32,000 nucleotides of DNA, taken from the NCBI GenBank assembly GCA_002952755.1, contig CP025011.1:1418270-1450269 (forward strand), given 5' to 3'. Each line of letters starts with the position of its first letter. Positions within the stretch are counted from its first letter, which is position 1. Of this stretch, positions 2,348-29,944 are shown in pieces. The notes under the pieces are model-generated. The model was not told where the DNA came from. It ran no database searches and saw nothing but the letters and a program-made list of their open reading frames with translations. The translations under genes were made by a program, and so were the position numbers. The DNA is from Candidatus Saccharimonadota bacterium. Its GTDB lineage: Bacteria; Patescibacteriota; Saccharimonadia; Saccharimonadales; UBA4665.

Positions 2348-3186
2348 GCGAACTCAAGTGCGCTCTTGATTCGGGCGACTGATTCCTCCGCCCGGTAATC
2401 ATCGAACCACAACACATGCCAGCCATGTTTCTCCGCTGCCATGAGATTGATGCGCGAATCGTCTACCAGTAAGATTTCCGAAGCAGGGGAGTGTGCTTTG
2501 AGCGTAGCCTGGGTGTACATCCTGGATTCTGGCTTAATAAGTCCGACTTCCGACGAATCAACGATTGCATCATAGGGCACATTAGGTATCAGGCCTTTTT
2601 GGATCAGCACATCGACAAAACCAGGCATAATGTTCGTGAGCAGACCCACCCGGTAGTGCTGGGCTGTCCATTGGACCATTTTATGCATGGCAGGAATAGG
2701 CTCGATGGCGTCCATATAGTAGGCCTGCCAATCGATCGGCTCAGCTGTGTGCAAGTCACTGGCCAGTTTGCGATTAAACGCGGCCATAGTCATTTCGCCC
2801 CGGCAAACGCGGTCGTTATAGTGCCAGAAGGTTGTCTCGATAATATCGGCCGAGGCACCTGTTTGCTGGCTTAGGCGAGTAAACGCCCGATGGAAAAAGC
2901 GTACAAGGCAACCATTAATGTCGAAATAAACGAATGTAACGCCGCTTTTAGAACGCTGCCTGGGCCGGGGGCGTGCAGGCGCAACGCCGAGCAATTGATC
3001 TAAGCTCAATCCGAGCGCCGTGGCAATATTCTGAATCGTAAAAATCGAGGGCGACTTGATAGCTCCGCGCTCGATCTTGGTAAGCGTAGAGTAGCTCAGG
3101 CCAGCTTTTTGACACAGCGTCTGCTGCGTCATGCCCGCCTTCACACGCGCCAACTGCAGGCGCTGGCCTAACCCCTCCTCATCCAT
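2341..3186 (-). CDS. XRE-family HTH domain fused to HAD-IA-type hydrolase
   Basis: The N-terminus GQRLQLARVKAGMTQQTLCQKAGLSYSTLTKIERG is an XRE helix-turn-helix, followed by a PARPRPRQR linker. HAD motifs follow: FDINGCL (I), GLLTN (II), KPESRMY (III), LLVDDSRINLMAAEKHGW (IV). The 3' end overlaps the convergent Nudix gene by 7 nt. Confidence 0.8.
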   Translation of the reverse strand: MDEEGLGQRLQLARVKAGMTQQTLCQKAGLSYSTLTKIERGAIKSPSIFTIQNIATALGLSLDQLLGVAPARPRPRQRSKSGVTFVYFDINGCLVRFFHRAFTRLSQQTGASADIIETTFWHYNDRVCRGEMTMAAFNRKLASDLHTAEPIDWQAYYMDAIEPIPAMHKMVQWTAQHYRVGLLTNIMPGFVDVLIQKGLIPNVPYDAIVDSSEVGLIKPESRMYTQATLKAHSPASEILLVDDSRINLMAAEKHGWHVLWFDDYRAEESVARIKSALEFAQ

Positions 3187-3287
3187 AGCCTTATGATACC
3201 AGCTTATGGCAAAACTGCCTAGCGGACTAGCCGCAAACGGCCAGCTTTTTCCTTGGCCGAATCACGCAGACATGTACAATATGAACT

Positions 3288-4409
3288 ATGAATATACTAC
3301 GCAAAACCATCGTCGCACTAGCAGGGACATTTCTTGTACCGCTTTTATTTAGTTTCGGATTCGCCTGGAGCGTACATCAGGTCTTTGGCAACTCTACCGA
3401 TATAAAACAAGCATTGAGAAGTAGCGGGTTGTATACCTCAGTTGTGGGTGAGGCATTGGATCAATCTCAAAGACAGCAACATAGCAATACTTCCAGTAGT
3501 GATGTGCCAGTAGGCGATCCGCACATCCGAGCCGCTATCCAATCTGCCTTTCCACCGTCCTACTTGCAGTCACAAACCGAAAATACCATCGACGCCACCT
3601 ATGCCTGGATCCAGGGGAAGACACCGACACTGCAGTTCCGCATCGATATGTCCGGCGCCAAAGCTAAACTAGCCGATGGGGTCGGGCAATACGCCCAAGC
3701 ACGTGTCGCTTCGCTGCCGCGCTGTGCTGCAACTACCACTCCAAGCGGCGACATCGACCCGTTTACCGCCACCTGCGTACCAAAGGGGGTAGACGATGCG
3801 GCCATTGCCTCGGCCTCCCGTAACAACATCTTGCAAGGTGATTTTCTCAAGGACAGCACTATCACCGCCGACACCATTAAGACTAAAGACGGCATCACGC
3901 TGAATCAACAGCTTAAAAACGTACCGAAAGCGTACCAGAGGAGTGTCTCCGGCCTCTATATCAGCGGGGTCATCACGCTTTGTTTGCTTGTGGCTGTGGC
4001 ATGTTTAAGCATAGATTGGCGTCATGGCGTGCGGCGGGCCGGCATCTTTATGGTTGTTATGGGAGCCTTCAGCGCAGCCAGCGCTTGGCTGGCCAGCTTT
4101 ATTGTGCACAAAGTCGCAGTAAAGGTTGCAGAAAAACAAACCGCCGATACGCCGTTGCAAACGCAAATCCTCCATGTAGTACAGACACTGACTAACAACG
4201 TGCGAACCTGGTGGATGGCATATAGTATTACACTCCTCGTAGCGGGGACCGTTGCCATCCTGATTTCAGTACTGGTGAAACCGCGCTTAGATCAGAGTCA
4301 GGAGGTTAATCTCCCAAGTGGCGTCGATGGTATTGAGGGGCTCCCGCAGGAAAACCTGCCAGCTGCCGTGCCCTCCAAAACTGCTCATCCTCGCAGGCCG
4401 CAGAAATAA
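3288..4409 (+). CDS. integral membrane protein, unknown function
   Basis: 373 aa. It has an N-terminal TM helix (IVALAGTFLVPLLFSFGFAW), a ~190-aa hydrophilic middle, three further hydrophobic helices (e.g. GLYISGVITLCLLVAVACL, IFMVVMGAFSAASAWLASFIV, AYSITLLVAGTVAILISVLV) and a Pro/charged tail. Confidence 0.7.
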   Translation: MNILRKTIVALAGTFLVPLLFSFGFAWSVHQVFGNSTDIKQALRSSGLYTSVVGEALDQSQRQQHSNTSSSDVPVGDPHIRAAIQSAFPPSYLQSQTENTIDATYAWIQGKTPTLQFRIDMSGAKAKLADGVGQYAQARVASLPRCAATTTPSGDIDPFTATCVPKGVDDAAIASASRNNILQGDFLKDSTITADTIKTKDGITLNQQLKNVPKAYQRSVSGLYISGVITLCLLVAVACLSIDWRHGVRRAGIFMVVMGAFSAASAWLASFIVHKVAVKVAEKQTADTPLQTQILHVVQTLTNNVRTWWMAYSITLLVAGTVAILISVLVKPRLDQSQEVNLPSGVDGIEGLPQENLPAAVPSKTAHPRRPQK

Positions 4410-4512
4410 GTAAGGAAGTTTACGAGCCTCGGGCGAGTTTTTCACTCCTGGTTAAAGATAGGTAACTAGATACAGGATGGGGGTCCCGTATGACGGGAGG
4501 GCAAAAGGTTAC

Positions 4513-5115
4513 TCAAATTGCTAACGAATAGTTGTCGAGCGGCATTCCATTAAAATCAGGGGGTCCTAAATCTTTGATAAGCGAGAAGTGATCGACATGC
4601 TCGATCAGCTTAACCTTCGTATCGCCTGTCAGACGAGTAGCATCATCAAGATTAATTGGCCGGGTATACCGTGCAAGCGTGCAATGGGTGATGCCTGGTG
4701 GTTGTTTAGTACCTTCCGGCAGCGAAATTCGCTCAAGCAAGCGGACACGGATTGCATTCAACGCGGACGTATCGCTGGCCTTTATAATGATCGCCCCCTG
4801 ACTCACAATGAGCTGATCGAACATAATATCGAATGGCGGGCAGGTGGACAGCACCTCGTGCACAATCCGGTTATACTTCTGATACCACTGCGCAAAATGT
4901 TCGGCCCGCGTTTTGTCTCTATACTCCGCATCACAGATAATTTCCATAACCGTCACATGGAGGGCGGGAGGTTGCTGCAGCCAAATAGCGTCGCCAAAAG
5001 TCTGCACCAACTTTTCTTGTAGCGCTGCCACATATTGCGTTGCTGCTTTGCTCAATAAGATTGCTATATTATGCTCATCTTTAGAGTGTACTAGAGGGCT
5101 AGGAATTGTTAGCAT
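4513..5115 (-). CDS. 2H phosphoesterase / LigT-like (2'-5' RNA ligase family) protein
   Basis: Two H-x-T-x motifs (ALHVTVME and ITHCTLAR) lie about 90 aa apart, the hallmark of the 2H superfamily. ATG 5115 (MLTIPSP) is preferred over the TTG at 5142 used by the track. Confidence 0.7.
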   Translation of the reverse strand: MLTIPSPLVHSKDEHNIAILLSKAATQYVAALQEKLVQTFGDAIWLQQPPALHVTVMEIICDAEYRDKTRAEHFAQWYQKYNRIVHEVLSTCPPFDIMFDQLIVSQGAIIIKASDTSALNAIRVRLLERISLPEGTKQPPGITHCTLARYTRPINLDDATRLTGDTKVKLIEHVDHFSLIKDLGPPDFNGMPLDNYSLAI

Positions 5116-5235
5116 GACGATATCATAGCAAGAAAAGAACAAAAATAGCCTAACTGTTCTGGCCCTAAATCTTCATATGTTGTTTGTTTTTTAGAGGACT
5201 CGACTAATCACTTACAGAGGAGTGGCTTCGACACT

Positions 5236-5382
5236 GAGCAGGATAGTGAGCTTTGCCTTCTACAGAAAAACTTCCTCGGAATGCATTCCTGTGAGAGCTT
5301 TCCTTTCGCCAAACCTACGACTACGGTATCTTGCGCTACGCAAGATCCCTATCGTAGAACCAAACTCGGCGAATGTATCAAG
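5236..5382 (-). ncRNA. diverged second copy (copy A) of an unidentified structured RNA-like element
   Basis: It aligns by eye over its full length with 7052..7196. The hairpins are retained through compensatory changes (see findings). No terminator was seen. It lies directly upstream (minus strand) of the 2H phosphoesterase gene. Confidence 0.35.
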
Positions 5383-5454
5383 TAACGAAATGCGGAGCCC
5401 GGTTATTACAGAGCACTCCGTCTTGCGCGATTAGTTAGCTGTTATGATTATTCC

Positions 5455-6021
5455 ATGCAACCCATAGAAGCTTTTAAACAACTCTGTTTGCTGTCAGTAT
5501 TCATATTGCTCATTGGCCTTACTTTCTTGGCTATAAGGTGGCCAAAAGGCGTACATGCCACCTTCAGTCAGCATGCGGCAGTACAAAAGAAAACGATAGT
5601 TTACTATATTGTGCTGTTCATACTTGCCCTACCACCACTTACTGCGTTCTTTATATTTTGGTTTGTGCCTACTTTTCATCTGAGTACCTGGTTTATTGCT
5701 TTTGCCGTATTGTCAGAGCTGTTTCAGCACAGCGTTACTTTTATACCGGAAGTTGGAGGCTGGAAAACGAAGTGGCATGTTTTCCTGACGAATTGCTCAG
5801 CGGCGTTGCTAGTTCCTATGCTTTTGATCTTGTTGGCTTCTTCCTATGTGACCGGGATAGCCAAGATTATCACGCTGCTTGGCTTATTTTCCATGCTATC
5901 AATAACGGCTTACTTCCAATCTATGAAGCTTGCTAATAAGCTTAAGTATCTAATGCTCCTGCAGGTGGGTTATTATGGAGCTTTCTTCATAGCAATACTC
6001 GTTACAGCCTATAGCTACTGA
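5455..6021 (+). CDS. polytopic membrane protein, unknown function
   Basis: 188 aa, almost entirely hydrophobic helices (about 5-6 TM, e.g. LCLLSVFILLIGLTFLAI, IVYYIVLFILALPPLTAFFIFWFV, AALLVPMLLILLASSYV). ATG start. Confidence 0.7.
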   Translation: MQPIEAFKQLCLLSVFILLIGLTFLAIRWPKGVHATFSQHAAVQKKTIVYYIVLFILALPPLTAFFIFWFVPTFHLSTWFIAFAVLSELFQHSVTFIPEVGGWKTKWHVFLTNCSAALLVPMLLILLASSYVTGIAKIITLLGLFSMLSITAYFQSMKLANKLKYLMLLQVGYYGAFFIAILVTAYSY

Positions 6022-11426: not shown

Positions 11427-11879
11427 TTACGGTCCTGCCGGCGCTCCGGTGCCCGTATTGTTCACTTTGTCGAAGACAAACTTAACAACAACTTGTGCCA
11501 GAGCAACGATAACGAGGCCGATTACCGCATACACAATAGTGTTTTTGGCGCTGGTAATATTGCCTGAATCGCCCCCGGAAGTAATGTACTTAAAGCCGCC
11601 AAGCACGATCATGATAACGGCAATAATACCGACTACGATAGAGAAAATGTTTATAACCGTAGTAACAATATTCTGGACTTTGGTCGCCGATGATTGGTCG
11701 GCACTCGTATCAGCAGTACAAGTCTGGCCATTACCAGCAGTGCTCAACCCGGTGCCTTGAGATAAGCAGTCGCCGATAGTAGGAGCTGCATGCACCGCAA
11801 CAGGCACTAGCGCAGGCACAATGCTAAGCGCAAGAGTGGCGACGATAGCCGCGAAATGCTTACGAACGGTTTGTAACAT
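11427..11879 (-). CDS. T4SS pilin-like protein (TrbC/VirB2-type helical hairpin), paralog 1
   Basis: 150 aa. The signal peptide ends VAVHA|AP and is followed by a short Ser/Thr/Gly-rich ectodomain with 2 Cys. Then comes IFSIVVGIIAVIMIVLGGFKYITSGGDSGNITSAKNTIVYAVIGLVIVALAQVVV (helix-loop-helix). AAGGA lies 10 nt upstream of the ATG. Confidence 0.8.
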   Translation of the reverse strand: MLQTVRKHFAAIVATLALSIVPALVPVAVHAAPTIGDCLSQGTGLSTAGNGQTCTADTSADQSSATKVQNIVTTVINIFSIVVGIIAVIMIVLGGFKYITSGGDSGNITSAKNTIVYAVIGLVIVALAQVVVKFVFDKVNNTGTGAPAGP

Positions 11880-11959
11880 AATGAAATGTCCTTTCTTTGA
11901 ACGCTTTATTTACGTTATACCACAGGCATAAGCCGCATTACAATGGCACCGGAAAAAAA

Positions 11960-12409: not shown

Positions 12410-12419
12410 GTTGCCTCCA

Positions 12420-12833
12420 TTATTTCACGATATTAACAGCTAGGGCAAGAATTGCTTGGGCAAGAAGAATAACGAGCAGCCCAATGCCTGCAGCAATCAT
12501 GGTACGCCGGGCGTTCGCCGCTTTATTGGGATCGCCAGCGGCCGTAACATAATTAAAACCACCGACTATCATTAAAATTACCGCGGCGATACCTGAGACA
12601 GTCGACAGTATGAGCCCAACCTTGTACAAAATGCCGTTGGTGCCGCCAATAGGATTTTGCCCACTCGTCGTACAAACCGTTGAAGGGTTTTTGCCGGGCG
12701 TATTAGTCACACCTGTGTTCGAGCAGGCGTTTTGAAATGGATTAAAAGCTGCTGCTGAATGTGGTAAGAAAACAAAGACGATTCCAAACGCCAGTACAAA
12801 AACCGTAACCAGCAAGCGCGTATGTCGCAACAT
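12420..12833 (-). CDS. T4SS pilin-like protein, paralog 3
   Basis: 137 aa. The signal peptide ends HSAAA|FN and the ectodomain has 2 Cys. The hairpin is ILSTVSGIAAVILMIVGGFNYVTAAGDPNKAANARRTMIAAGIGLLVILLAQAIL. Confidence 0.8.
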   Translation of the reverse strand: MLRHTRLLVTVFVLAFGIVFVFLPHSAAAFNPFQNACSNTGVTNTPGKNPSTVCTTSGQNPIGGTNGILYKVGLILSTVSGIAAVILMIVGGFNYVTAAGDPNKAANARRTMIAAGIGLLVILLAQAILALAVNIVK

Positions 12834-12846
12834 ATTATATTACCTC

Positions 12847-13542
12847 CTATATATGACCAAGTGCATAGTTAACAATCGAGAAGGCAAGCATGGATACAAC
12901 CAGTCCAATAGCAGCATATATAATCGTGTTTTTCGTTTTTGCCATAGTATTAGGGTCGCCATTGGAAGTAACGTAGCGCAATCCGGCGATAATCAGCACT
13001 AATAACGCCACGCTGCCAAATAGCCCAATCACAATATTATAGAGGGAGAGAAGTGTAGTATTTGATGCCGCTGCATTAGGCAGGCTACTTAGGTCTACCC
13101 CGCTTGAGGTTTTGCCTGCACCTCCAGTTCCACCAAGACTCTCGCCAAGGAACCGTACGGCAGCAGCAGCGACGACGGTGATTCCTAGACCCACGAGGGA
13201 ATTAATAATGGTGCCGAGGGCATGCTTGGCTTTTTCGGGTTCACCCTGCGCGGTTATATATTGAAAGCCGGCATACACGATAAACCCGATGGCAACCAGA
13301 GCGCCGACACGGAGCAAAATATCGACAACACCAAGACCGACCAAACCAATCGAGCTAAGATCAAGATTACCGGTTGTATGATCAATAAAATGCGGGTCCA
13401 CCGAACAAAGACCGCTCGAATCTATTGTTACGTACTTCGCCCTGTCGAGATACTCAAACCACGAAGGGATCCCAAAGAAATTTCCTGGCTCCGGGCAGGG
13501 GCTCGCTCCAGCGGCAAAATGAGTCAATATATCCAAAAACAT
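12847..13542 (-). CDS. tandem double T4SS pilin-like protein (two hairpin modules in one chain), paralog 4
   Basis: 231 aa. Module a is LLRVGALVAIGFIVYAGFQYITAQGEPEKAKHALGTIINSLVGLGITVVAAAAV. Module b is IGLFGSVALLVLIIAGLRYVTSNGDPNTMAKTKNTIIYAAIGLVVSMLAFSIV. They are joined by a Gly/Ser linker. There is no obvious N-terminal signal peptide (MFLDILTHFAAGASPCPEPG...). Confidence 0.75.
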   Translation of the reverse strand: MFLDILTHFAAGASPCPEPGNFFGIPSWFEYLDRAKYVTIDSSGLCSVDPHFIDHTTGNLDLSSIGLVGLGVVDILLRVGALVAIGFIVYAGFQYITAQGEPEKAKHALGTIINSLVGLGITVVAAAAVRFLGESLGGTGGAGKTSSGVDLSSLPNAAASNTTLLSLYNIVIGLFGSVALLVLIIAGLRYVTSNGDPNTMAKTKNTIIYAAIGLVVSMLAFSIVNYALGHI

Positions 13543-13570
13543 GTCGATACCAGATACCGTTCATTACTCA

Positions 13571-14185
13571 TTATAGGATACCTCCGGGTGTAATCCACTG
13601 CAGGAAGGCCCACAAAAATCCAAAGGCTATAATCGCTATAACCGCATTAATAATACGCTGCTGAGCCGCTGCTGTGACATTCGGCTGGTCTGCCGAGGTG
13701 CTGTACTGAATACCCGCGACAATAATAGAAATGACAGCGGCAAGTACTACCACGACAGCCAATGTATTAATAATGGGATTTAGGTATTGGCGAACGATGC
13801 TGCACTGCTGCTGCGGGTCGAGTTCTGTTGGGCAATTGTTCCCACCTTTTGCGGCATTGTCAGTGCTGCCCGACGCGGTCTGAGCCTGGACGACATTCTT
13901 GGCTTGAAAAACGTCCCCGGAACAGTCGGATTGCGATACCCAGCCTTTCGCGGCATCCGATAGGGTGTAACATTTACCGGCTGCAAAGATGCCTTTACTC
14001 GGAGCTTTACCGTCCACGGGAAGGGTAGGAGTATCTGCGCATTGTGTAGTTATGCCAGCTAGTGCGTCAAAACATAATGCAGGACTGGCAGCGTGCACAA
14101 TGGCTGCCGGAAATACTGCCGACGGTACCGCGACTGCCGCACTGAAGAGGACTACTTGAATTATGTGTTTTACGCGCTGCAGCAT
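13571..14185 (-). CDS. T4SS pilin-like protein with enlarged 6-Cys ectodomain, paralog 5 (first gene of the operon)
   Basis: 204 aa. The signal peptide ends AIVHA|AS and is followed by a ~105-aa ectodomain with 6 Cys. The hairpin is INTLAVVVVLAAVISIIVAGIQYSTSADQPNVTAAAQQRIINAVIAIIAFGFLWAFL. Confidence 0.75.
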   Translation of the reverse strand: MLQRVKHIIQVVLFSAAVAVPSAVFPAAIVHAASPALCFDALAGITTQCADTPTLPVDGKAPSKGIFAAGKCYTLSDAAKGWVSQSDCSGDVFQAKNVVQAQTASGSTDNAAKGGNNCPTELDPQQQCSIVRQYLNPIINTLAVVVVLAAVISIIVAGIQYSTSADQPNVTAAAQQRIINAVIAIIAFGFLWAFLQWITPGGIL

Positions 14186-18872: not shown

Positions 18873-18950
18873 TTTACGACCTTAAGATGGCAGAGATAAC
18901 GCCGCTCATCTACCCATACTGGCTCATATAGTAATTACATAAGCACTATA

Positions 18951-18980
18951 TTGACATTATACCAATCATGTGTTTATAAT
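18951..18980 (+). promoter_or_regulatory. near-consensus sigma-70-type promoter inside the T4SS operon
   Basis: TTGACA (18951..18956), an 18-nt spacer, then TATAAT (18975..18980), 36 nt upstream of ATG 19016, within the only sizeable gap (143 bp) of the operon. Confidence 0.5.
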
Positions 18981-19015
18981 TTAGATATGAAAAATTCACT
19001 CTTAGGCTGGTCGAC

Positions 19016-20893: not shown

Positions 20894-20958
20894 CTAAGCC
20901 TGTAGTCTTTTTAATAACACTACAAGCAGCCCTTACTCTCGCGTATACTATGTAAGTA

Positions 20959-22227
20959 ATGTCTACCTACAAGGTCATTCAGGATGTGGAGGCCGAGGAC
21001 AAGCTCATTGGGCCGTTGTCGCTTCGGCAGTTTATCTATGCCGGCATTTCGGCTATCTGCTTGTATCTTTGCTATTTCTTAAGCACGCATCATGCGGCGT
21101 TCTTGACGATCGTCTTGATCCCGGTTGCTTTTATATCGGGCTTTTTTGCATTCCCTTGGGGGAGGGACCAGCCGACCGAACTCTGGGCGCTGGCCAAGAT
21201 CCGCTTTTTTTTGAAACCCCGTCGCAGAGTCTGGGATCAGGATGGCGTCAAGGAACTGGTGACCATTACAGCGCCTAAGCATGTACAGGTTGATTACACC
21301 AACGGCCTTTCGCAAGACGAAGTGCACAGCCGGCTGCAGGCGCTGGCCGCCACCATTGATAGCCGTGGTTGGGCTATTAAGAATGCCAACCTCACTGTGT
21401 CTACCCAGCCAACGCTCGTCATGGGCGATCCGCAGTCCGACCGTCTGGTGAATCCCAGCTCCTTACCCCAACCTGTATCCGACGTGCAGATAAGCGCTGC
21501 CGACGACATTCTGGACGAAAAGAACAATGCAGCAGCGTCACGTGTCGACAGTATGATTTCGGCCAGCTCAAAAGCGCACCGTGATAAACTACTGGAAGAG
21601 ATGCGCAAAAAGGATGCGCCAACCCTGCCGCCGCCGCCAAAGTCCGCAGCTACAGCAGCGGCTCCACAGAAGCCAAACGACTACTGGTTCCTCAATCAGC
21701 CCGCCCAGCCTGCCGGTATTCCTAATAATATGGTTACTTTTAACACCCAGGTTGTCACCCCGGCCACCCCCAGTACATCCGCGCCTATCTCCGATCCTGT
21801 CATAACTTCAGCGGTGACTCCTGTACAAAGTACTACGAGCACTCCACCCCAGGACGAAGCGAGTATCGTCGCCGAACTCGATGCTAAAAAACAGGAATTA
21901 CCGACAACCGCCTATTACAATCACTTGCACACCATTCAACCGCTTTCTGCCCAGCAGCAGGCTAGTACACCTCCAGCGCAATCACCAGACATACCTACCG
22001 CTCAACCGGTAGCGCCACAGTACAAATACAACGCCGTGACACCCACAACACCGAGCCCCGGTCCCGTTGCTCCGCCGGCCGCTGCAGCCGTAGCAGCGCC
22101 GGTGACACCCATTCAGCAGGCTGCTATACTACAGCTATCCAGGAATGACGATCTGAATGTGGCCACCTTGGCCCGCGAAGCCGAACGATCGGCACCACAA
22201 GACGAAGTCGTCATTAAACTGCATTAA
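20959..22227 (+). CDS. PrgI-family (VirB3-like) T4SS membrane protein with long Pro/Ala/Thr/Gln-rich C-terminal extension
   Basis: The N-terminus YKVIQDVEAEDKLIGPLSLRQFIYAGISAICLYLCYF plus a second TM (FLTIVLIPVAFISGFFAFPW) is the PrgI-family signature. It sits immediately upstream of VirB4, as in Gram-positive T4SSs. aa ~215-385 are low complexity. Confidence 0.75.
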   Translation: MSTYKVIQDVEAEDKLIGPLSLRQFIYAGISAICLYLCYFLSTHHAAFLTIVLIPVAFISGFFAFPWGRDQPTELWALAKIRFFLKPRRRVWDQDGVKELVTITAPKHVQVDYTNGLSQDEVHSRLQALAATIDSRGWAIKNANLTVSTQPTLVMGDPQSDRLVNPSSLPQPVSDVQISAADDILDEKNNAAASRVDSMISASSKAHRDKLLEEMRKKDAPTLPPPPKSAATAAAPQKPNDYWFLNQPAQPAGIPNNMVTFNTQVVTPATPSTSAPISDPVITSAVTPVQSTTSTPPQDEASIVAELDAKKQELPTTAYYNHLHTIQPLSAQQQASTPPAQSPDIPTAQPVAPQYKYNAVTPTTPSPGPVAPPAAAAVAAPVTPIQQAAILQLSRNDDLNVATLAREAERSAPQDEVVIKLH

Positions 22228-22236
22228 AAGAGGGAT

Positions 22237-23250
22237 ATGAATCCGAACGCACCAAACCAACCATATTCAGGTGGACAAACTCAGCCGGGCATGCCTTATG
22301 TGTCGCAGCAAGCTGCCTCGATGGCACCCGCTGGGGGCCCGCAGAACGTAGCCGGTGCTCATCCTGTTATTGCCAGCGATCTCATGCACCAGGCAGCTGG
22401 CATGGCAGCGTCGGTCGGCGCTCCTGATGCTTCCGCTGCGCCACAACCAACAAATGTAGTCGCCGGCGGTCCCGCCGCAGCCACTGGGGCAGACGGCAAG
22501 CCTTTAGTAGCTACACCACACACCAATCCTAACAGCACCCAAAATACGCTGCTAATTGCCGAGATCCGCGACGGTATTGTGATCATGAACGACGGCTCAT
22601 TCCGATCTGTTGTGATGGTCAAATCAGTCAACTTCGACCTGATGAGTCCCCAGGAGCAGGAATCAGTAGAGTATTCGTATCAAGGATTCTTAAACTCGCT
22701 CTATTTCCCAATTCAAATCTTCATCCGCTCGCAAAAAGTGGACTTACAACCATACGTCGAGAAACTCGACAAAATCCGCACCGAGCATGACAACATGCTC
22801 CTTGCCATGCTCATGGAAGATTACATTACCTATATCGACCAGTTGTCGCAGCAAACCAACATTATGGACAAAAAATTCTACATAGTTATTCCGTACTTTC
22901 CGCATGTTGATGTCCAAAAAGCACTCACTCAAAGCAAGAACTTTTTTACCGGCTTTTTGAACCTATTTAATACCAAAGAACAGCACGTAGTAGTGAATGA
23001 AGCCGATCTCGAAAAGGCCAAAACCGAGCTTCGTAACCGCGTCCAGGCCGTCCTCCAAGGTGCGTTACAATGTGGTATTCAAGGCTTGCCGCTCGACACC
23101 CAGGAGCTTATCGAACTATTCTACGACACCTATAACCCAGACACGGCTACCCGCCAACAACTAAAGAATTTTGGAAGTCTGACCGCCGATATTATCACTA
23201 AAGGGCAAGGGAATGCCCCTCAGGCACACTTACAACGGGAGCTCAACTAA
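22237..23250 (+). CDS. VirB4 N-terminal-domain-like protein (apparent detached N-domain of VirB4) with Pro/Ala/Gly/Gln-rich leader
   Basis: After a ~100-aa low-complexity stretch comes LLIAEIRDGIVIMNDGSFRSVVMVKSVNFDLMSPQEQESVEYSYQGFLNSLYFPIQIFIRSQKVD. This matches the N-terminal block of Gram-positive VirB4 proteins as I recall them (for example Tn916 Orf16). The stop overlaps the next ATG (TAATG). AGAGGG lies upstream of the ATG. Confidence 0.65.
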   Translation: MNPNAPNQPYSGGQTQPGMPYVSQQAASMAPAGGPQNVAGAHPVIASDLMHQAAGMAASVGAPDASAAPQPTNVVAGGPAAATGADGKPLVATPHTNPNSTQNTLLIAEIRDGIVIMNDGSFRSVVMVKSVNFDLMSPQEQESVEYSYQGFLNSLYFPIQIFIRSQKVDLQPYVEKLDKIRTEHDNMLLAMLMEDYITYIDQLSQQTNIMDKKFYIVIPYFPHVDVQKALTQSKNFFTGFLNLFNTKEQHVVVNEADLEKAKTELRNRVQAVLQGALQCGIQGLPLDTQELIELFYDTYNPDTATRQQLKNFGSLTADIITKGQGNAPQAHLQRELN

Positions 23251-25154
23251 TGGCACGTAAAAAACAACTTGACCCTGTTGCATTGGCACAGGCCCAGCAG
23301 CAGCGCGAACAGCAAGAAGTGGCTGCCGCTTTCCAAAAGGGTGTCACGGCGCTGCGTGATTTTATCGCGCCAAGCTCCCTGGAATTTAATAGTAGTTATT
23401 TTCACCTCGGAACCCGTATGGCACGCACCTATTATGTATACGGCTACCCGCGCCAACTATACACCGGTTGGATGAGCAGCATGGTGAACCTCGATGAAGT
23501 AATTGATATTTCACTATTTATTTACCCGGTCGAAAGCCAGGTCGTGCTCGACAACTTGCGTAAAAAAGTCACCCAGCTGGAAGCCGGCATCCAGATCGAC
23601 TCCGAAAAAGGTCGGGTACGCGACCCGCAAAAACAGGCCGCCATCCTCGACGCCGAAGAAATGCGTGATAAGTTGCAGGTGGGCGAAGAGCGCTTCTTCC
23701 GCTTTGGTTTCTACTTTACCGTCTACGCCGGCAGTCTCGAGGAACTCGAATTTATCAGCCACAAGGTGGAATCGATGCTCGGCCAGCAACTGGTCTTTTC
23801 CAAACCGGCATCATCACAGCAAGAGCAGGGACTCAACAGTACTGTGCCGCAATTTAGTGACCAGCTACAGATCCGCCGCAACATGAGCACCGGGGCGATT
23901 AGCACTAGCTTCCCATTCACCAGCGCCGACTTAAGCCAAGACAACGGTATTCTATATGGCATTAATATGCACAATTCCGGCCTGGTGATCTTCGACCGCT
24001 TTAGCCTGGAGAATGGTAACTCGGTCGTCTTCGCCAAGTCTGGTGCCGGTAAATCGTTTACCGTCAAACTTGAGGCGTTGCGCAGCATGATGATGGGCAC
24101 CGAAATCTTCATCATCGACCCCGAAAATGAGTACGAACGGATGTGCGATGCCGTTGCTGGTTCCTATGTGCGACTCAGTCTTAACTCGGCTACGCGTATC
24201 AACCCGTTCGATCTCCCCAGGGTAGTCGACACCGAAGAGGCCGACAATGCTTTGCGCAGCAACCTCATCACCTTGCACGGTTTGTTCCGTTTAATGATGG
24301 GCGGCGCCCAAGCGCAGATGCTTGGCGGACAGCAAGTGCTGGCTCCCGCTTTGTCTCCGGTAGAGGAATCTGATCTGGATGCGGCACTCATCGAAACTTA
24401 CGCCCGCGCCGGCATCACCAACGATCCGCTCACGCATCAAGGCTACCCGCCAACGATTGCCGACCTCTACGACACACTCCTGCACATGGGCGGCACCGGC
24501 CCGCAATTAGCTCAGCGCCTGCGCAAATATACCACTGGAACATTCGCTGGCATTTTCTCGCAGCAAAGCAACATCGACATTAACAACCCGCTCGTCGTCT
24601 TTAACATCCGCGACCTCGAGGACGAGTTGCGACCAGTGGCCATGTACATCGTACTTAATTACATCTGGAACAAGACCAAAACCGACCGGCGCAAGCGTAT
24701 CCTGATCGTGGATGAGGCCTGGCAGCTCATGAAGTACGAAGATTCGGCGAACTTCCTGTTTAGCCTCGCGAAACGCGCTCGCAAATACAACCTTGGTATT
24801 ACCACCGTCACTCAAGACGTCGAAGACTTTATGGGTTCGCGCATGGGTCGCGCTGTTGTCGCTAACGCCAGCATGCAGTTCCTGCTGAAGCAATCCCCAA
24901 CTGCAGTCGACGTGCTGTCTGATGTTTTCAAGCTCACCAGCGAAGAGAAAAAACGTTTGAGCCAATTCCCGGTAGGGCAAGGCCTCTTCTTTGCCGGCCA
25001 AAACCACGTCCACATCCAGGTGGTAGCCAGCCCGACTGAAACGACACTCATTACGACTAACCCAACGCAGGTACAGCAAATCCAGTCGGGCGCGATGGAT
25101 CAAGTGCAAGGCACGATCGACCTTGCCAATCAGCTAACGCCCGGGAGCTTATAA
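23250..25154 (+). CDS. virB4: VirB4-family T4SS ATPase (middle and ATPase domains)
   Basis: LRDFIAPSSLEFNSSYFHLGTRMARTYYVYGYPRQLYTGWMSSM is the VirB4 middle block. Walker A is VFAKSGAGKSFTVK (about 24036) and Walker B is RILIVDEAWQL (about 24700). The C-terminal blocks TTVTQDVEDF and LLKQSP follow. Confidence 0.92.
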   Translation: MARKKQLDPVALAQAQQQREQQEVAAAFQKGVTALRDFIAPSSLEFNSSYFHLGTRMARTYYVYGYPRQLYTGWMSSMVNLDEVIDISLFIYPVESQVVLDNLRKKVTQLEAGIQIDSEKGRVRDPQKQAAILDAEEMRDKLQVGEERFFRFGFYFTVYAGSLEELEFISHKVESMLGQQLVFSKPASSQQEQGLNSTVPQFSDQLQIRRNMSTGAISTSFPFTSADLSQDNGILYGINMHNSGLVIFDRFSLENGNSVVFAKSGAGKSFTVKLEALRSMMMGTEIFIIDPENEYERMCDAVAGSYVRLSLNSATRINPFDLPRVVDTEEADNALRSNLITLHGLFRLMMGGAQAQMLGGQQVLAPALSPVEESDLDAALIETYARAGITNDPLTHQGYPPTIADLYDTLLHMGGTGPQLAQRLRKYTTGTFAGIFSQQSNIDINNPLVVFNIRDLEDELRPVAMYIVLNYIWNKTKTDRRKRILIVDEAWQLMKYEDSANFLFSLAKRARKYNLGITTVTQDVEDFMGSRMGRAVVANASMQFLLKQSPTAVDVLSDVFKLTSEEKKRLSQFPVGQGLFFAGQNHVHIQVVASPTETTLITTNPTQVQQIQSGAMDQVQGTIDLANQLTPGSL

Positions 25155-25165
25155 GGTCATTATCT

Positions 25166-27766
25166 ATGGCAACGTACGACGATGACCATGACGATGACCA
25201 TGACACCAAAACCGGACCCAGTGCTGACGAGCTACATAACAGCGTATATGGCTCCGGAATCGAACACCCGCTTGGTGACATGGAGACCAAGGCCTACACC
25301 GCCAGAGACCTCCGTGCCCAAGAAGAAAAGCAGATGGGTATCACACCCGGCAACCTCCCGGATCTACGCACAGATGAGGGGCCACGCGGAAGTGGAGCCC
25401 CCGACCTCGCTGCACAAGGGAGAGACGACCGCCGACGCGACGCCAAAACCGCTAAAACTGCTCAAGGTATACCAAGCACCGACCTTCGAGATGCAGAAGA
25501 GGGCGGCAATCGACGCCCCAAAGTCGACTGGCTCAACGGTGGTTTTTATAAGGGCAAGGCAGGCGACCAGCAACCCGCAGGGGGAGCGAAAAGCTTCTAT
25601 AGCCGGCATAAAAAAGCAGTCATCTTTGGCAGTCTGCTGAGCGCCGGGGCGGTTTTTTTTGTAGGTATTTTGCTCATTATCGTTCTTCTGCTTGCTCCGT
25701 TCAAAAACGTGCACTTTGCAACCGTCTTGCGCTCCGTTGGCATGGCCCGTTTTACCTATGTCATGAACAAGCAGTTCTCACGCACCATTTTTGATGCCGC
25801 CGTGCTCACCGATAACAGCACCGGCAGATTCGTACCACCAAAGGATAGTCTCTTTTACAAAGTGCTGGGCATTACACCGCAAAAAAATCTCCTGGAGCTT
25901 GGCAATCAGAATAAACTCAAATTCGACTTTACCGGTGAATCGAGATTCGGTGATAAAACCGGGGGATTGCTTGGCCGGACTAACACCTTTAATGGCGTGG
26001 TTATAGACGGAAAGGGCTATTACCTCAACGACTATGCTAAGAGGATGTATGGTGTCAATTTCGACGATCTCTCTACCGTCTCGCTTACAGGCCGGACAGA
26101 GCAAACAAGAGTTTTGTCTGCGTTTGCCAATGACGTGCAGAGCAAACTATCCGATATGCTGCAGCTTAAGACTCGCCGTTTTAGATGGGGCGTATACAAG
26201 GGGTTCTACCAAGCAACCGGCATCAAACTGATTAAATGGTATAACAGAGGAAAAGATTATAGTAACCTGAACGACGCAGAAGCTCGGGCGAAAAATGTCG
26301 ACGATACCATAAAACAGGTAGAAGGTGAGGACGCCAAAGCGCGTTCGACAGGCGTATCTGAAATAGACAACGAGGCGCAACAGGAGAGGACTGATACCAT
26401 AAACGCAACCAAGACTGGCGATACTCCTGGGCAAGTAAGAAGCAAACTGGCCAATCGTCTCCGAACGGCAAGTGACGTCTCTACGGCATTCGCTGCCGTC
26501 ACGATGGCCTGTGTGCTGCACGGCCTAGCGAACGCCTTCGACGGATCTCAACAGATGCGCGAACAAAATGTGGCACGATTCGGGGCCGAGATCCAGACTG
26601 CCGCCGATCAGCAAAAGTACGGCGACACTACTGCCCAGGCTGTGGGTGCCGAAAATGCTATGTGGACTGATGCACAGAAATCAGCCGGCTACAAAAGCGC
26701 AACTGGTCGAGCTTTGTCTTCTGACGACCAGAAGGAATTAGCAGGCGTGCCGAGCGTTCTTCCTCCCAATCAGAAATTCGCAGATATCATTAGCCTGGTC
26801 GATAAAGTCATGACCGGGGGTTTCATCACCGGCTTCATACCCGGCCTCAATCAAGTACATGATTACCTGGCAAATGTCGGATGTGACGCAGTACTTAACC
26901 CTTACTCTCAGGCTCTGATTAGTGGGGGGGAGATAGCTCTGGCAGTTTACTCGGCCGGGTCTACGGAAGGCATTGTCGCCGCGATCCGTGCGGCCATTTC
27001 ATCTGGGTTGCAGCTGGGTGGAAGCGTCGGGTTGGGGGAGCTACTGGGTTTGTTTGTAGATAATGTTATCCATAGTGTTGCCAACCTCGACTTCTCAGGT
27101 ATCCAAACAGGTTCGGCACGCTTTGATCAGGGACTTGTAGCAACCGATTACATGCAGCAGGTAGGCAATCGCCAGATTACGTTTGGCGCTCCAATGAGCG
27201 TCGATGATGCAAACGCCGCCCAGCAGCAAGCCATGGCCGACTTGCATGCCCAAAATGCGCAGCAATCGTTTACAGAGCGCTATTTTGCCATGGACAATCC
27301 ATTCTCGCTCAGCAGCAATGTAGCTGCCGTTATGCCGACGACATTTAGCGGCATGGCCGATTCGATTCGTGGCGGCATTATGTCGACCTTATCGGTCATC
27401 AGCTCGCCTCAGCGATTATTTGGAAGTATCGCAAGTGTCTTTACGTCGCATAACCACGCTTTTGCTGCAGCAACGATAAAACGCTCAGATTCGTTTGGTG
27501 TAGATGAGTGGGGTTGGACAACAGACGAACTCAGCAAAGTAGATAACGATCCGAGCTTCGACCTGACCCAGCTGATTCAAACAGTCGAACCAAACCTGGC
27601 TACACTCAACACCAAATACGGCCCATGCTACGACAGTGGTTACGTGCTCCAGACCAACAAACCCTCACAGTGCACAAGAGGTTTCCTCGCAAGCGACGAG
27701 GCGCTTCACTGGCGCTCATACATGGCGCAGACATATGCTGCGACACACTTAACAGGATCTATCTAG
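25166..27766 (+). CDS. 866-aa bitopic membrane protein: charged cytoplasmic N-tail, one TM, ~670-aa external domain; T4SS-associated, unknown
   Basis: The N-terminus MATYDDDHDDDHD is followed by an Arg/Lys/Asp-rich ~160 aa, then the TM AVIFGSLLSAGAVFFVGILLIIVLLLAPF and a large hydrophilic domain. A Gly-rich amphipathic stretch (GGEIALAVYSAGSTEGIVAAIRAAISSGLQLGGSVGLGELLGLF) and a C-terminal Cys pair are present. Confidence 0.7.
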   Translation: MATYDDDHDDDHDTKTGPSADELHNSVYGSGIEHPLGDMETKAYTARDLRAQEEKQMGITPGNLPDLRTDEGPRGSGAPDLAAQGRDDRRRDAKTAKTAQGIPSTDLRDAEEGGNRRPKVDWLNGGFYKGKAGDQQPAGGAKSFYSRHKKAVIFGSLLSAGAVFFVGILLIIVLLLAPFKNVHFATVLRSVGMARFTYVMNKQFSRTIFDAAVLTDNSTGRFVPPKDSLFYKVLGITPQKNLLELGNQNKLKFDFTGESRFGDKTGGLLGRTNTFNGVVIDGKGYYLNDYAKRMYGVNFDDLSTVSLTGRTEQTRVLSAFANDVQSKLSDMLQLKTRRFRWGVYKGFYQATGIKLIKWYNRGKDYSNLNDAEARAKNVDDTIKQVEGEDAKARSTGVSEIDNEAQQERTDTINATKTGDTPGQVRSKLANRLRTASDVSTAFAAVTMACVLHGLANAFDGSQQMREQNVARFGAEIQTAADQQKYGDTTAQAVGAENAMWTDAQKSAGYKSATGRALSSDDQKELAGVPSVLPPNQKFADIISLVDKVMTGGFITGFIPGLNQVHDYLANVGCDAVLNPYSQALISGGEIALAVYSAGSTEGIVAAIRAAISSGLQLGGSVGLGELLGLFVDNVIHSVANLDFSGIQTGSARFDQGLVATDYMQQVGNRQITFGAPMSVDDANAAQQQAMADLHAQNAQQSFTERYFAMDNPFSLSSNVAAVMPTTFSGMADSIRGGIMSTLSVISSPQRLFGSIASVFTSHNHAFAAATIKRSDSFGVDEWGWTTDELSKVDNDPSFDLTQLIQTVEPNLATLNTKYGPCYDSGYVLQTNKPSQCTRGFLASDEALHWRSYMAQTYAATHLTGSI

Positions 27767-27773
27767 GAGTAGT

Positions 27774-29300: not shown

Positions 29301-29317
29301 GATGAGTAGGGGGCGCT

Positions 29318-29935: not shown

Positions 29936-29944
29936 GGAACTAGT

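What the first reader, a model, noticed from the sequence alone, without database searches (positions are those of the whole stretch)
22237..25154. VirB4 apparently split into two translationally coupled ORFs (TAATG junction)
In single-chain Gram-positive VirB4 proteins as I recall them (Tn916 Orf16, PrgJ-type), an N-terminal block (..I.DG.i...d..yskvi.v..iNf.l.s..eq..i...f..fLn......iq.....) precedes the middle block (DFIAPSS.ef......lg....r.l.v...P..l..g.l) and the Walker A/B ATPase. Here the first block is in ORF 22237..23250 (IAEIRDGIVIMNDGSFRSVVMVKSVNFDLMSPQEQESVEYSYQGFLNSLYFPIQIFIRS). The second block begins 35 aa into ORF 23250..25154 (LRDFIAPSSLEFNSSYFHLGTRMARTYYVYGYPRQLYTGW). The first stop and the second start share one nucleotide (TAATG) and the frames differ by one. 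This is either a natural gene fission, with an N-domain that could dock or regulate separately, or a frameshift (pseudogenisation or sequencing error).
Basis: partly seen in the sequence, partly recalled or inferred. Interest (0 to 1): 0.65.

Follow-up and report, generated by a model that had tools for sequence, protein, structure and literature searches.

The report
Conserved two-gene VirB4 (TrsD-like plus ATPase)
The secretion-system motor VirB4 really is encoded here as two back-to-back, overlapping genes, but this is a conserved arrangement already described (TrsD plus VirB4) in Patescibacteria and some Gram-positive plasmids, not a frameshift and not new.

Summary
ORF1 (22237..23250, 337 aa) ends in a TAA that shares one base with the ATG of ORF2 (23250..25154, 634 aa).

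ORF1 residues ~97-337 form a VirB4 N-terminal ("TraC-like", PF26593; TrsD-like) domain. Evidence:
- Profile hits fall on the first ~120-250 positions of single-chain VirB4 models.
- A confident AlphaFold model (pLDDT 87) has R388 TrwK/VirB4 as all 14 of its top PDB matches.

ORF2 covers the remainder (CD1110 VirB4 profile positions 178-734) and has Walker A and B motifs.

The split is not an error:
- The identical gene pair occurs in an independent assembly.
- All 79 related Saccharimonadia loci examined keep two ORFs, 46 of 80 with the same 1-nt overlap.
- pSK41 TrsD/TrsE, Firmicutes plasmids and a haloarchaeal plasmid are split at the same point.
- A Berkelbacteria lineage has the two parts fused in the same order.

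The arrangement is published. Quiñonero-Coronel et al. 2025 report TrsD homologues next to virB4 in 1,664 cases in Patescibacteria, and the homologue is essential in Southlakia.

Verdict: a real, ordinary, already known feature. The only mildly new point is that, where spacers were inserted at this junction in relatives, a "relay" ORF always bridges them. That argues for selection on translational coupling.

The parts
20959..22227 (+). PrgI-family (VirB3-like) membrane protein, 422 aa. The PrgI domain is at residues 5-92, followed by a long P/A/T/Q-rich low-complexity tail. It ends 9 nt before ORF1.
   Evidence: Pfam PF12666 PrgI, E 2.4e-12, 47.6 bits against a cutoff of 27. The same gene order VirB3-like -> TrsD -> VirB4 occurs in pSK41, C. 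difficile BI1 and Berkelbacteria.
22237..22518 (+). Low-complexity (P/Q/A/G-rich) N-terminal extension of ORF1, about 94 aa. It varies in length and sequence among relatives and is absent in some.
   Evidence: Alignment A1: no conserved columns before N97. Some homologues (P0048, P0090) start just before the domain.
22519..23250 (+). TraC-like / TrsD-like domain of ORF1, the N-terminal subdomain of VirB4 encoded as a separate polypeptide. It includes the conserved C-terminal tail ...HLQREL-x-stop.
   Evidence: NCBIfam hits to the N-terminal positions of VirB4 profiles and to TrsD NF041427 (E 1e-6). Precomputed PF26593 TraC-like. AF2 pLDDT 87. The Foldseek top 14 hits are all TrwK/VirB4, prob 1.0. 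2390 clusters at 50% identity in the representative library.
23237..23241 (+). Shine-Dalgarno-like GGGAG for ORF2, inside the last codons of ORF1 (Arg334-Glu335), 8 nt upstream of the ORF2 ATG.
   Evidence: Sequence read directly. The same (A/C)GGGAG or AAGGAG / CAGGAG motif sits at this position in most of the related loci.
23248..23252 (+). TAATG junction: ORF1 stop (23248-23250) overlaps the ORF2 start (23250-23252) by one base.
   Evidence: The same 1-nt overlap occurs in 46 of 80 loci (window included), and 0 to +4 nt spacing in 16 more.
23250..25154 (+). VirB4-type ATPase lacking the N-terminal subdomain, 634 aa. Walker A GAGKS is at residues 265-269 (window 24042-24056). Walker B ILIVDEAW is at residues 484-491 (window 24699-24722).
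   Evidence: NF045971 conju_CD1110, 361 bits (cutoff 325), profile positions 178-734. Pfam P-loop_TraG, AAA_10 and DUF87. PDB 4ag5 VirB4 C-terminal domain, E 5e-47, over residues 226-602. End-to-end alignment with pSK41 TrsE. Aligns to PrgJ 215-772.

Best explanation
This is a natural, ancient and conserved two-gene form of the type IV secretion ATPase VirB4, in the chromosomal T4SS operon of a Saccharimonadia (Patescibacteria) genome. ORF1 is a TrsD-like ('TraC-like' domain) protein and carries the N-terminal subdomain of VirB4. ORF2 carries the middle region and the C-terminal Walker A/B ATPase domain.

The two genes are translated from one mRNA in a coupled way. The ORF2 Shine-Dalgarno (GGGAG) lies in the last codons of ORF1, and the stop and start codons overlap (TAATG). 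Ribosomes finishing ORF1 therefore open or occupy the ORF2 start site, and the two chains are made together in similar amounts.

Inferred: the two polypeptides associate non-covalently to rebuild a VirB4-like protomer. The ORF1 part would sit next to the VirB3-like PrgI protein encoded just upstream, as the VirB4 N-terminal domain does with VirB3 and VirB8 in the R388 structure (established knowledge, not tested here). The assembly would power a T4SS that, in Saccharibacteria, is essential for epibiotic growth.

Shown: homology of each part, colinearity, complementarity, conservation of the split, and the coupling signals. Inferred: the physical complex, its stoichiometry and its function.
For: 1. 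ORF1 and ORF2 map to successive parts of single-chain VirB4 profiles.
2. The ORF1 domain model (pLDDT 87) matches only TrwK/VirB4 chains with probability 1.0 (ranks 1-14; the next hits have probability <=0.2).
3. ORF2 starts where pSK41 TrsE starts. It aligns to PrgJ from residue 215 onward, so it lacks about 200 N-terminal residues that single-chain proteins have. There is no similarity between ORF1 and the ORF2 N-terminus, so ORF1 is not a duplicate.
4. A fused 860-910 aa form exists in about 70 protein clusters (Berkelbacteria/Patescibacteria), with the domains in the same order. It matches the VirB4_plasma profile positions 92-893 in one stretch.
5. Conservation of the split: 5951+ homologues, the top 120 all 260-396 aa. 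149 of the 150 best 50%-identity representatives are standalone. 79 of 79 GTDB loci with both genes keep two ORFs with a conserved ORF1 C-terminus.
6. The identical protein and the same 1-nt overlap occur in an independent Logan assembly.
7. The same split and gene order occur in pSK41, Pontibacillus, C. difficile BI1 and a Haladaptatus plasmid.
8. Literature: TrsD is described as a remote homologue of the VirB4 N-terminus. There are 2,272 homologues in Patescibacteria, 1,664 of them next to virB4, and the homologue is essential in Ca. Southlakia epibionticum (PMC12102498). The T4SS is essential (PMC10633639).
9. Selection on coupling: where spacers exist in relatives, a relay ORF with overlapping start and stop always bridges them.
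Against: - No direct evidence that the two polypeptides bind each other, or that ORF1 contacts PrgI.
- The sequence match of ORF1 to the curated TrsD model is far below its cutoff (28.7 against 200 bits).
- The local Pfam scan gave no hit for ORF1, although the precomputed annotation lists PF26593.
- PDB sequence searches with ORF1 profiles found nothing.
- hhalign of the ORF1 family against the single PrgJ sequence was not significant (E 0.49).
- Foldseek TM-scores are moderate (0.43-0.50 on the query), and the tool does not report which TrwK residues were aligned.
- Stop/start overlaps do not by themselves prove coupling. E. coli work questions reinitiation as the mechanism (PMC7538156, title only).
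Confidence: 0.85

Rival explanations
1. The split is a recent frameshift: a pseudogene in the making, or a sequencing or assembly error in a gene that is really one continuous virB4.
For: Frames differ by one and the two parts are colinear with single-chain VirB4. Fused relatives exist in another CPR lineage.
Against: - All 79 related loci keep the split, and ORF1 ends at the same conserved residue.
- Thousands of standalone homologues exist.
- ORF2 has its own ATG, and a Shine-Dalgarno motif lies 8 nt upstream of it.
- The identical pair appears in an independent assembly.
- Both ORFs are under strong purifying selection. The ORF1 domain is 67-92% identical. ORF2 is >=83% identical across 72 species.
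- The fused relatives are only 39-50% identical and have an ~85-aa linker absent here.
Confidence: 0.01
2. The two ORFs are joined at the ribosome, by programmed frameshifting or stop-codon bypass at the TAATG junction, so that a single-chain VirB4 is made at least part of the time.
For: Adjacent ORFs in different frames with a shared nucleotide. A fused architecture is functional in Berkelbacteria.
Against: - No slippery heptamer at ...CTCAACTAATG....
- Among relatives the junction varies from 14-nt overlap to 166-nt spacer, with all three frame relations. No fixed recoding signal could be conserved across these.
- ORF2 always begins with its own ATG, preceded by a Shine-Dalgarno motif.
Confidence: 0.03
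3. ORF1 is an independent accessory or adaptor protein that merely descends from a VirB4 N-domain. It would have its own role, for example substrate or pilin recruitment or regulation of the ATPase, rather than acting as a structural complement of ORF2.
For: [quoted passage not shown]
- ORF1 carries a variable disordered N-terminal extension.
- In Gracilibacteria, TrsD homologues are reported not to be linked to virB4.
Against: - ORF2 lacks the corresponding region, so a VirB4 without ORF1 would be incomplete relative to every single-chain family.
- Linkage and coupling to virB4 are tight in 79 of 79 loci.
- The fusion in Berkelbacteria keeps the canonical order.
- The relay ORFs preserve coupling.
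Confidence: 0.1

Closest known systems
TrsD/TraD + TrsE/TraE of staphylococcal conjugative plasmids pGO1/pSK41 (MPF_FATA, pGO1 subclass)
   Same: Same gene order: VirB3-like (TrsC) -> TrsD -> VirB4-like ATPase. Same breakpoint: ORF2 aligns with TrsE from its N-terminus to its C-terminus, and both map to VirB4_plasma profile positions ~265/287-893. The ORF1 domain aligns with TrsD (29% over 79 aa, E 2e-5; NF041427 E 1e-6).
   Different: - Very divergent: 28.7 bits against the 200-bit family cutoff.
- ORF1 is longer (337 against 227 aa), with a ~94-aa disordered N-terminal extension and a longer C-terminal part.
- pSK41 has a 14-nt gap between trsD and trsE, not an overlap.
- The window locus is chromosomal, and the window shows no recognisable relaxase or coupling protein in the cluster. 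It also has VirB2-like pilin genes.
TrsD homologues next to VirB4 in Patescibacteria T4SS (Quiñonero-Coronel et al., Microb Genom 2025, PMC12102498); the essential T4SS of Ca. Southlakia epibionticum (Wang et al., Cell 2023, PMC10633639)
   Same: This window is an instance of exactly that arrangement: a Saccharimonadia chromosomal T4SS with PrgI, TrsD-like and VirB4 genes plus pilin genes.
   Different: Nothing substantive. The paper calls TrsD a remote homologue of the VirB4 N-terminal portion with no assigned function. In the passages read, it does not spell out that the adjacent VirB4 lacks that portion, nor does it describe the junction.
Single-chain monoderm VirB4 (pCF10 PrgJ, CD1110 family NF045971; Mycoplasma ICE VirB4 NF045975)
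   Same: ORF1+ORF2 together cover the profile colinearly. ORF2 22-583 aligns to PrgJ 215-772. PrgI lies immediately upstream in both.
   Different: One polypeptide there against two here.
Fused TraC-like+VirB4 of Berkelbacteria-type Patescibacteria (P0221 and ~70 clusters, 860-910 aa)
   Same: Same two modules in the same order: 39% identity to ORF1 and 50% to ORF2. PrgI is upstream.
   Different: Covalently joined through an ~85-aa P/A/G-rich linker. The linker resembles the disordered tails of standalone TrsD-like proteins, which suggests, without proving, a secondary re-fusion.
R388 TrwK/VirB4 (PDB 7O41, 8RTB, 8RTD)
   Same: The fold of the ORF1 domain matches TrwK chains (prob 1.0, E 2.7e-4 to 6e-3). 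The ORF2 C-terminal region matches TrwK 583-733 by sequence.
   Different: Diderm system, single chain, 12-17% identity. The aligned TrwK residues are not reported by the tool.

Membership tests
VirB4 ATPase, CD1110 family (NCBIfam NF045971) | Score at or above the curated cutoff (325 bits) | tested here: met
   ORF2 scores 361.1 bits, E 1.1e-107.
VirB4 ATPase, CD1110 family (NCBIfam NF045971) | Full-length coverage of the 752-position profile by one polypeptide | tested here: not met
   ORF2 covers positions 178-734 only. Positions 11-119 are matched by ORF1 (E 3.9e-5).
VirB4 ATPase | Walker A and Walker B NTP-binding motifs | tested here: met
   GAGKS at ORF2 265-269 and ILIVDEAW at 484-491. 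Pfam P-loop_TraG/AAA_10. 4ag5 VirB4 C-terminal domain, E 5e-47.
TrsD/TraD family (NCBIfam NF041427) | Score at or above the curated cutoff (200 bits) | tested here: not met
   ORF1 scores 28.7 bits, E 1e-6, profile positions 13-142 of 201. pSK41 TrsD itself scores 227.6 bits. ORF1 is a remote relative, not a member of this narrow subfamily.
TrsD-like split arrangement (TrsD as defined by the CONJScan profile used in PMC12102498) | Standalone protein homologous to the VirB4 N-terminus, encoded immediately upstream of a virB4 that lacks that region, downstream of a VirB3-like gene | tested here: met
   The CONJScan TrsD profile itself was not available to run.
Pfam PF26593 TraC-like domain | Significant match to the domain model | tested here: inconclusive
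   The precomputed annotation lists PF26593 for the window's own protein (P0001; unmarked hit = E<=1e-5 on L087) and for the N-terminus of the fused VirB4s. However, the local Pfam-A hmmscan returned no family for ORF1 at E<=0.1. The local copy may lack or predate that model.
VirB4 N-terminal domain fold (R388 TrwK) | Structural similarity of a confident model to the N-terminal part of a solved VirB4 | tested here: met
   Model pLDDT 87, pTM 0.75. Foldseek ranks 1-14 are all TrwK/VirB4, prob 1.0, TMq 0.31-0.50, 139-214 aligned columns. Which TrwK residues align is not shown. The N-terminal location is inferred from the profile coordinates.
Programmed ribosomal frameshift site | Conserved slippery sequence and fixed frame relation at the junction | tested here: not met
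   No slippery heptamer. Junction geometry varies from -14 to +166 nt, with all frame relations, among relatives.
Physical two-subunit VirB4 complex | The ORF1 and ORF2 products bind each other, and ORF1 contacts PrgI/VirB3 | not testable with these tools
   No multimer prediction or experimental data are available. Inferred from complementarity and from the fused homologues.

The most novel reading that the evidence does not exclude
Translational coupling between the TrsD-like gene and virB4 is itself under strong selection. This could be because the two halves of the ATPase must be made together, for co-translational assembly or a fixed 1:1 ratio.

In Saccharimonadia relatives where repeat-rich spacers of 13-166 nt have been repeatedly inserted at this junction, the spacer is always spanned by a non-conserved 'relay' ORF. 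Its start overlaps the upstream stop (ATGA/GTGA). Its stop overlaps the virB4 ATG (TGATG/TAATG), or in one locus (L033) ends 1 nt before it. Often a small hairpin surrounds the Shine-Dalgarno motif. Such a junction would be a natural model for how split enzymes keep their halves matched.
Probability: 0.4. Interest if true: 0.35.

Novelty: already known. Interest (0 to 1): 0.2.

Why it matters
The T4SS of Saccharibacteria is one of the few machines shown to be essential for their epibiotic life, and TrsD is its most widespread component with no assigned function. Seeing that the TrsD-like protein and the adjacent VirB4 are complementary halves of one canonical ATPase gives TrsD a concrete structural role to test. 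These halves are split at the same point in CPR bacteria, Firmicutes plasmids and a haloarchaeal plasmid, and re-joined in Berkelbacteria. This sharpens a published observation rather than making a discovery. For genome annotation, the practical value is that such pairs should not be flagged as frameshifted virB4.

Tried and rejected
1. AlphaFold with the shallow alignment A1 (19 close homologues, full length) failed (pLDDT 38). Repeating it on the domain alone with 98 diverse representatives gave pLDDT 87.
2. hmmsearch of ORF1 family profiles against PDB sequences found nothing, even at E<=10. Only the fold comparison saw VirB4.
3. The local Pfam scan of ORF1 found no family, in conflict with the precomputed PF26593 annotation. 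I relied on NCBIfam, the fold result and the precomputed hits.
4. hhalign of the ORF1 family against the single PrgJ sequence placed the match at PrgJ 35-103, the expected place, but without significance (E 0.49). It is not used as evidence.
5. P0336 (582 aa, 83% identical to the ATPase part of the fused P0221) looked like a very recent split/fused toggle. The DNA shows a continuous 906-aa ORF (L082 3029..5749), so the 582-aa protein is a truncated gene call. Rejected.
6. Internal duplication (ORF1 as a paralogue of the ORF2 N-terminus) was rejected: no similarity.
7. I tried to decide whether fused or split is ancestral in CPR. The fused N-domain is about equally distant (~40%) from all standalone representatives, so this was uninformative. 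No rooted phylogeny was built.
8. The 2014 Guglielmini paper, which PMC12102498 cites for the TrsD-VirB4 homology, does not contain the word TrsD in its held main text. The statement is therefore cited from PMC12102498 only.
Full report
**1. Observation**

The window holds ORF1 at 22237..23250 (+, 337 aa) and ORF2 at 23250..25154 (+, 634 aa). The junction reads CGGGAGCTCAAC-TAA-TGG. The stop TAA is 23248-23250 and the ATG is 23250-23252, so one base is shared and the frames differ by one.

**2. What the two ORFs are**

ORF2 is a VirB4-type ATPase:
- NCBIfam NF045971 (CD1110 family): 361 bits against a cutoff of 325, covering profile positions 178-734 of 752.
- Pfam P-loop_TraG, AAA_10 and DUF87.
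- E 5e-47 to the crystal structure of a VirB4 C-terminal domain (4ag5) over residues 226-602.
- Walker A GAGKS at 265-269 and Walker B ILIVDEAW at 484-491.

ORF1 has a variable, low-complexity N-terminal ~94 residues and a strongly conserved domain from about N97 to the C-terminus. That domain hits:
- positions 11-119 of NF045971 (E 3.9e-5);
- positions 100-253 of the Mycoplasma ICE VirB4 model NF045975 (E 1.1e-5);
- positions 19-137 of TIGR00929 (E 7.6e-4);
- the TrsD/TraD model NF041427 (E 1e-6).

The two ORFs therefore cover consecutive, non-overlapping stretches of single-chain VirB4 models. The public collection's precomputed Pfam annotation gives PF26593 'TraC-like' for ORF1 and all its homologues. 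My local Pfam scan returned nothing.

A first AlphaFold run with a shallow alignment failed (pLDDT 38). A second run, on the domain alone with 98 diverse representatives, gave pLDDT 87 and pTM 0.75. Foldseek against the PDB returned R388 TrwK/VirB4 chains as ranks 1-14 (probability 1.0, E 2.7e-4 to 6e-3, query TM 0.31-0.50). Everything below had probability <=0.2. ORF1 shows no similarity to the ORF2 N-terminus, so it is a complement, not a duplicate.

**3. Error or real?**

Several independent results show the split is real:
- A search of 5.8 billion proteins gave at least 5951 homologues of ORF1. The best 120 are all 260-396 aa standalone proteins from Saccharimonadales/Patescibacteria MAGs.
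- In the 50%-identity representative library, 2390 clusters match at E<=1e-3. 149 of the best 150 are standalone.
- 495 GTDB species encode a relative. Of the 80 loci fetched, 79 contain both genes, and all 79 have two ORFs, with ORF1 ending at the same conserved ...HLQREL-x position.
- Junction geometry in 80 loci, window included: 1-nt overlap (TAATG/TGATG) in 46; 0 to +4 nt in 16; 8- and 14-nt overlaps in 2; one unchecked outlier (computed value -62, probably a mis-picked start); longer spacers in the rest.
- The exact ORF1 protein, followed by a 634-aa ORF with the same 1-nt overlap, is present in an independent assembly (Logan SRR34954208).
- ORF2 is >=83% identical across 72 species.

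A frameshift, pseudogene or sequencing error is excluded. Programmed frameshifting is also unlikely. There is no slippery site, and the frame relation and spacing vary among relatives.

**4. The same split elsewhere, and a fused form**

pSK41 has trsC (VirB3-like), trsD (227 aa) and trsE (672 aa, VirB4-like) in the same order. ORF2 aligns with TrsE from end to end with coincident N-termini (E 2e-39). The ORF1 domain aligns with TrsD (E 2e-5). TrsE maps to NF045975 positions 265-893, against 287-892 for ORF2. The breakpoint is therefore the same.

A tblastn of the ORF1 domain against 72,556 plasmids hit 90 records, mostly Bacillus, Clostridium and Paenibacillus, plus two Haladaptatus archaeal plasmids. 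The three I opened show a standalone 274-337 aa gene immediately upstream of a 621-666 aa VirB4. In C. difficile BI1 the gene before it is annotated as PrgI-family; in the Pontibacillus and Haladaptatus records that upstream gene is an unnamed hypothetical protein.

By contrast, pCF10 PrgJ is a single 796-aa chain, and ORF2 aligns only to its residues 215-772.

One of the 150 representatives, P0221 (898 aa), is a fusion. The TraC-like domain is at residues 13-230, followed by an ~85-aa P/A/G-rich linker and then a VirB4 part 50% identical to ORF2. It matches NF045975 positions 92-893 in one stretch. About 70 clusters of 860-910 aa share this architecture, several named Berkelbacteria, on many independent contigs with PrgI upstream. 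An apparent close split relative (P0336) proved to be a truncated gene call of a continuous 906-aa ORF.

**5. How it most likely works**

The + strand genes from 14470 to 30613 are packed with gaps of -4 to 143 nt. This fits one operon.

The sequence shows the following:
- ORF1 has its own GAGGG 5 nt upstream of its ATG.
- The ORF2 Shine-Dalgarno motif GGGAG (23237-23241) is encoded by Arg334-Glu335 of ORF1, 8 nt before the ATG.
- The same purine motif is kept in relatives even where the residue changes (AAGGAG, CAGGAG).

I infer classical translational coupling. I also infer non-covalent reassembly of the two chains into a VirB4-like protomer, with the ORF1 part next to PrgI/VirB3. This follows established knowledge of the R388 structure, where the VirB4 N-terminal domain binds VirB3 and VirB8; I did not test it.

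The last ~25 residues of ORF1 are nearly invariant but modelled with low confidence. They may be a docking peptide as well as carrying the Shine-Dalgarno motif. That is speculation.

**6. Comparison with what is known**

Quiñonero-Coronel et al. (Microb Genom 2025, PMC12102498) state the following:
- It was the most abundant T4SS component in Patescibacteria: 2,272 homologues in 2,221 assemblies, 1,664 associated with VirB4.
- It has no assigned function.
- It is listed as essential in Ca. Southlakia epibionticum.

Wang et al. (PMC10633639) describe that essential T4SS, with its pilin genes and its lack of a relaxase and coupling protein. The window fits: four VirB2-like pilin genes lie upstream on the minus strand. 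The 2025 FEMS review (PMC12857230) mentions the Patescibacteria T4SS but not TrsD or a split.

So the arrangement is already catalogued and named. NCBIfam and Pfam both hold models for the domain. By the strict NCBIfam cutoff, ORF1 is not a member of the narrow TrsD/TraD subfamily (28.7 against 200 bits). It is a remote relative with the same architecture and context.

**7. What is mildly new**

*(a) Complementarity.* The adjacent VirB4 truly lacks the region that TrsD supplies. The breakpoint is shared by CPR, staphylococcal, Bacillus/Clostridium and haloarchaeal systems. A Berkelbacteria lineage carries the two parts fused.

*(b) Relay ORFs.*
- In 16 of the 79 relatives, the two genes are separated by 13-166 nt of repeat-rich spacer.
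- In each of the 16, an ORF of 5-56 codons spans the spacer. Its start overlaps the ORF1 stop (ATGA/GTGA). Its stop overlaps the virB4 ATG (TGATG/TAATG), with a single 1-nt gap in one case.
- Across 11 long spacers there are 0 stops in the relay frame against 36 and 25 in the other two frames. Eleven of the 36 are simply the ORF1 stop codon.
- The product of the shuffle probabilities, over the 14 spacers tested, is about 1e-11.5.
- The peptides are unrelated to each other.
- Spacer-bearing loci are interspersed with TAATG loci. For example, the nearest relative of L023 is L022, which has a direct TAATG junction, at 95.5% VirB4 identity.

This suggests repeated insertion with selection to keep ribosomes flowing into virB4. 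Coupling through short upstream ORFs is a known kind of mechanism (for example iraD, PMC5574718; title and abstract only). This is therefore a curiosity, not a new principle, and it lies in related loci, not in the window.

**8. Verdict**

- Observation: confirmed.
The frameshift alternative is refuted.
- Novelty: already known.
- Interest: low (0.2).

Noticed in passing
L023, L026, L033, L034, L049, L050, L051, L053, L058, L060, L061, L070, L072, L073, L078, L079 (junction between the TrsD-like gene and virB4; e.g. L023 4753-4914, L051 4792-4962): Spacers of 13-166 nt are inserted at the junction. Each is spanned by a non-conserved 5-56 codon 'relay' ORF whose start overlaps the upstream stop (ATGA/GTGA) and whose stop overlaps the virB4 ATG (TGATG/TAATG; L033 has a 1-nt gap). 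There are 0 stops in the relay frame against 36 and 25 in the other frames over 11 long spacers. The spacers contain tandem and inverted repeats, and several have a small hairpin around the GGAGG Shine-Dalgarno motif. Spacer-bearing loci are interspersed with TAATG loci.
   Followed up: partly
P0221 / L084 4001-6697; L082 3029-5749; ~70 protein clusters: A Berkelbacteria-type Patescibacteria lineage encodes the TraC-like domain and VirB4 as one 860-910 aa protein, joined by an ~85-aa P/A/G-rich linker. The linker resembles the disordered tails of standalone TrsD-like proteins (P0188, P0226, P0228), which hints at a secondary re-fusion.
   Followed up: partly
L082 4001-5749 (CP066695.1): The deposited 582-aa VirB4 protein (P0336) is a truncated gene call. 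The DNA has one continuous 906-aa ORF (3029..5749), and no gene is annotated over its first ~970 nt.
   Followed up: yes
L088 (Pontibacillus plasmid), L089 (C. difficile BI1 plasmid), L090 (Haladaptatus plasmid): The same split (a 274-337 aa TraC-like gene followed by a 621-666 aa VirB4) occurs in Firmicutes megaplasmids and in a haloarchaeal plasmid. The upstream gene is annotated PrgI-family only in L089. The TrsD-like genes are annotated 'hypothetical protein'. This distribution looks wider than 'only the pGO1 subclass'.
   Followed up: partly
window 11427-14185, minus strand: Four consecutive genes (11427..11879, 12420..12833, 12847..13542, 13571..14185) carry the T4SS_pilin / TrbC-VirB2 domain. 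One match (13571..14185) falls just under Pfam's cutoff. This is the pilin cluster reported as unusual for monoderm-type T4SS in Saccharibacteria.
   Followed up: no
window 20959-22227 and 22237-22518: The PrgI protein has a ~330-aa P/A/T/Q-rich tail after its 90-aa PrgI domain, and ORF1 begins with a ~94-aa P/Q/A/G-rich region. Two long disordered segments thus flank the PrgI/TrsD-like gene boundary. Their length and sequence vary freely among relatives.
   Followed up: no
window 30622-31680, minus strand: A RecF/SMC_N-type ATPase gene lies next to the T4SS operon. This would fit the published remark that Patescibacteria T4SS clusters often lie near the replication origin. dnaA itself was not looked for.
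   Followed up: no
window 14901-18872, 19016-20893, 25166-27766, 27774-29300: Large operon genes (1323, 625, 866 and 508 aa) flank the VirB4 pair and have no significant Pfam or NCBIfam family. They are presumably lineage-specific T4SS components. A similar pattern of very large unannotated neighbours occurs in the Berkelbacteria loci (L082, L084).
   Followed up: no
window 22237-23250 (ORF1): The local Pfam-A hmmscan returned no family at E<=0.1, while the collection's precomputed annotation lists PF26593.2 (TraC-like) for the identical protein. The local library copy may lack or predate that model.
   Followed up: no
L044 ~4776-4783; L062 ~2455-2468: In two relatives the ORF1 stop has moved downstream, so ORF1 overlaps virB4 by 8 and 14 nt instead of 1. 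These are further variants that still keep the two ORFs overlapping.
   Followed up: no
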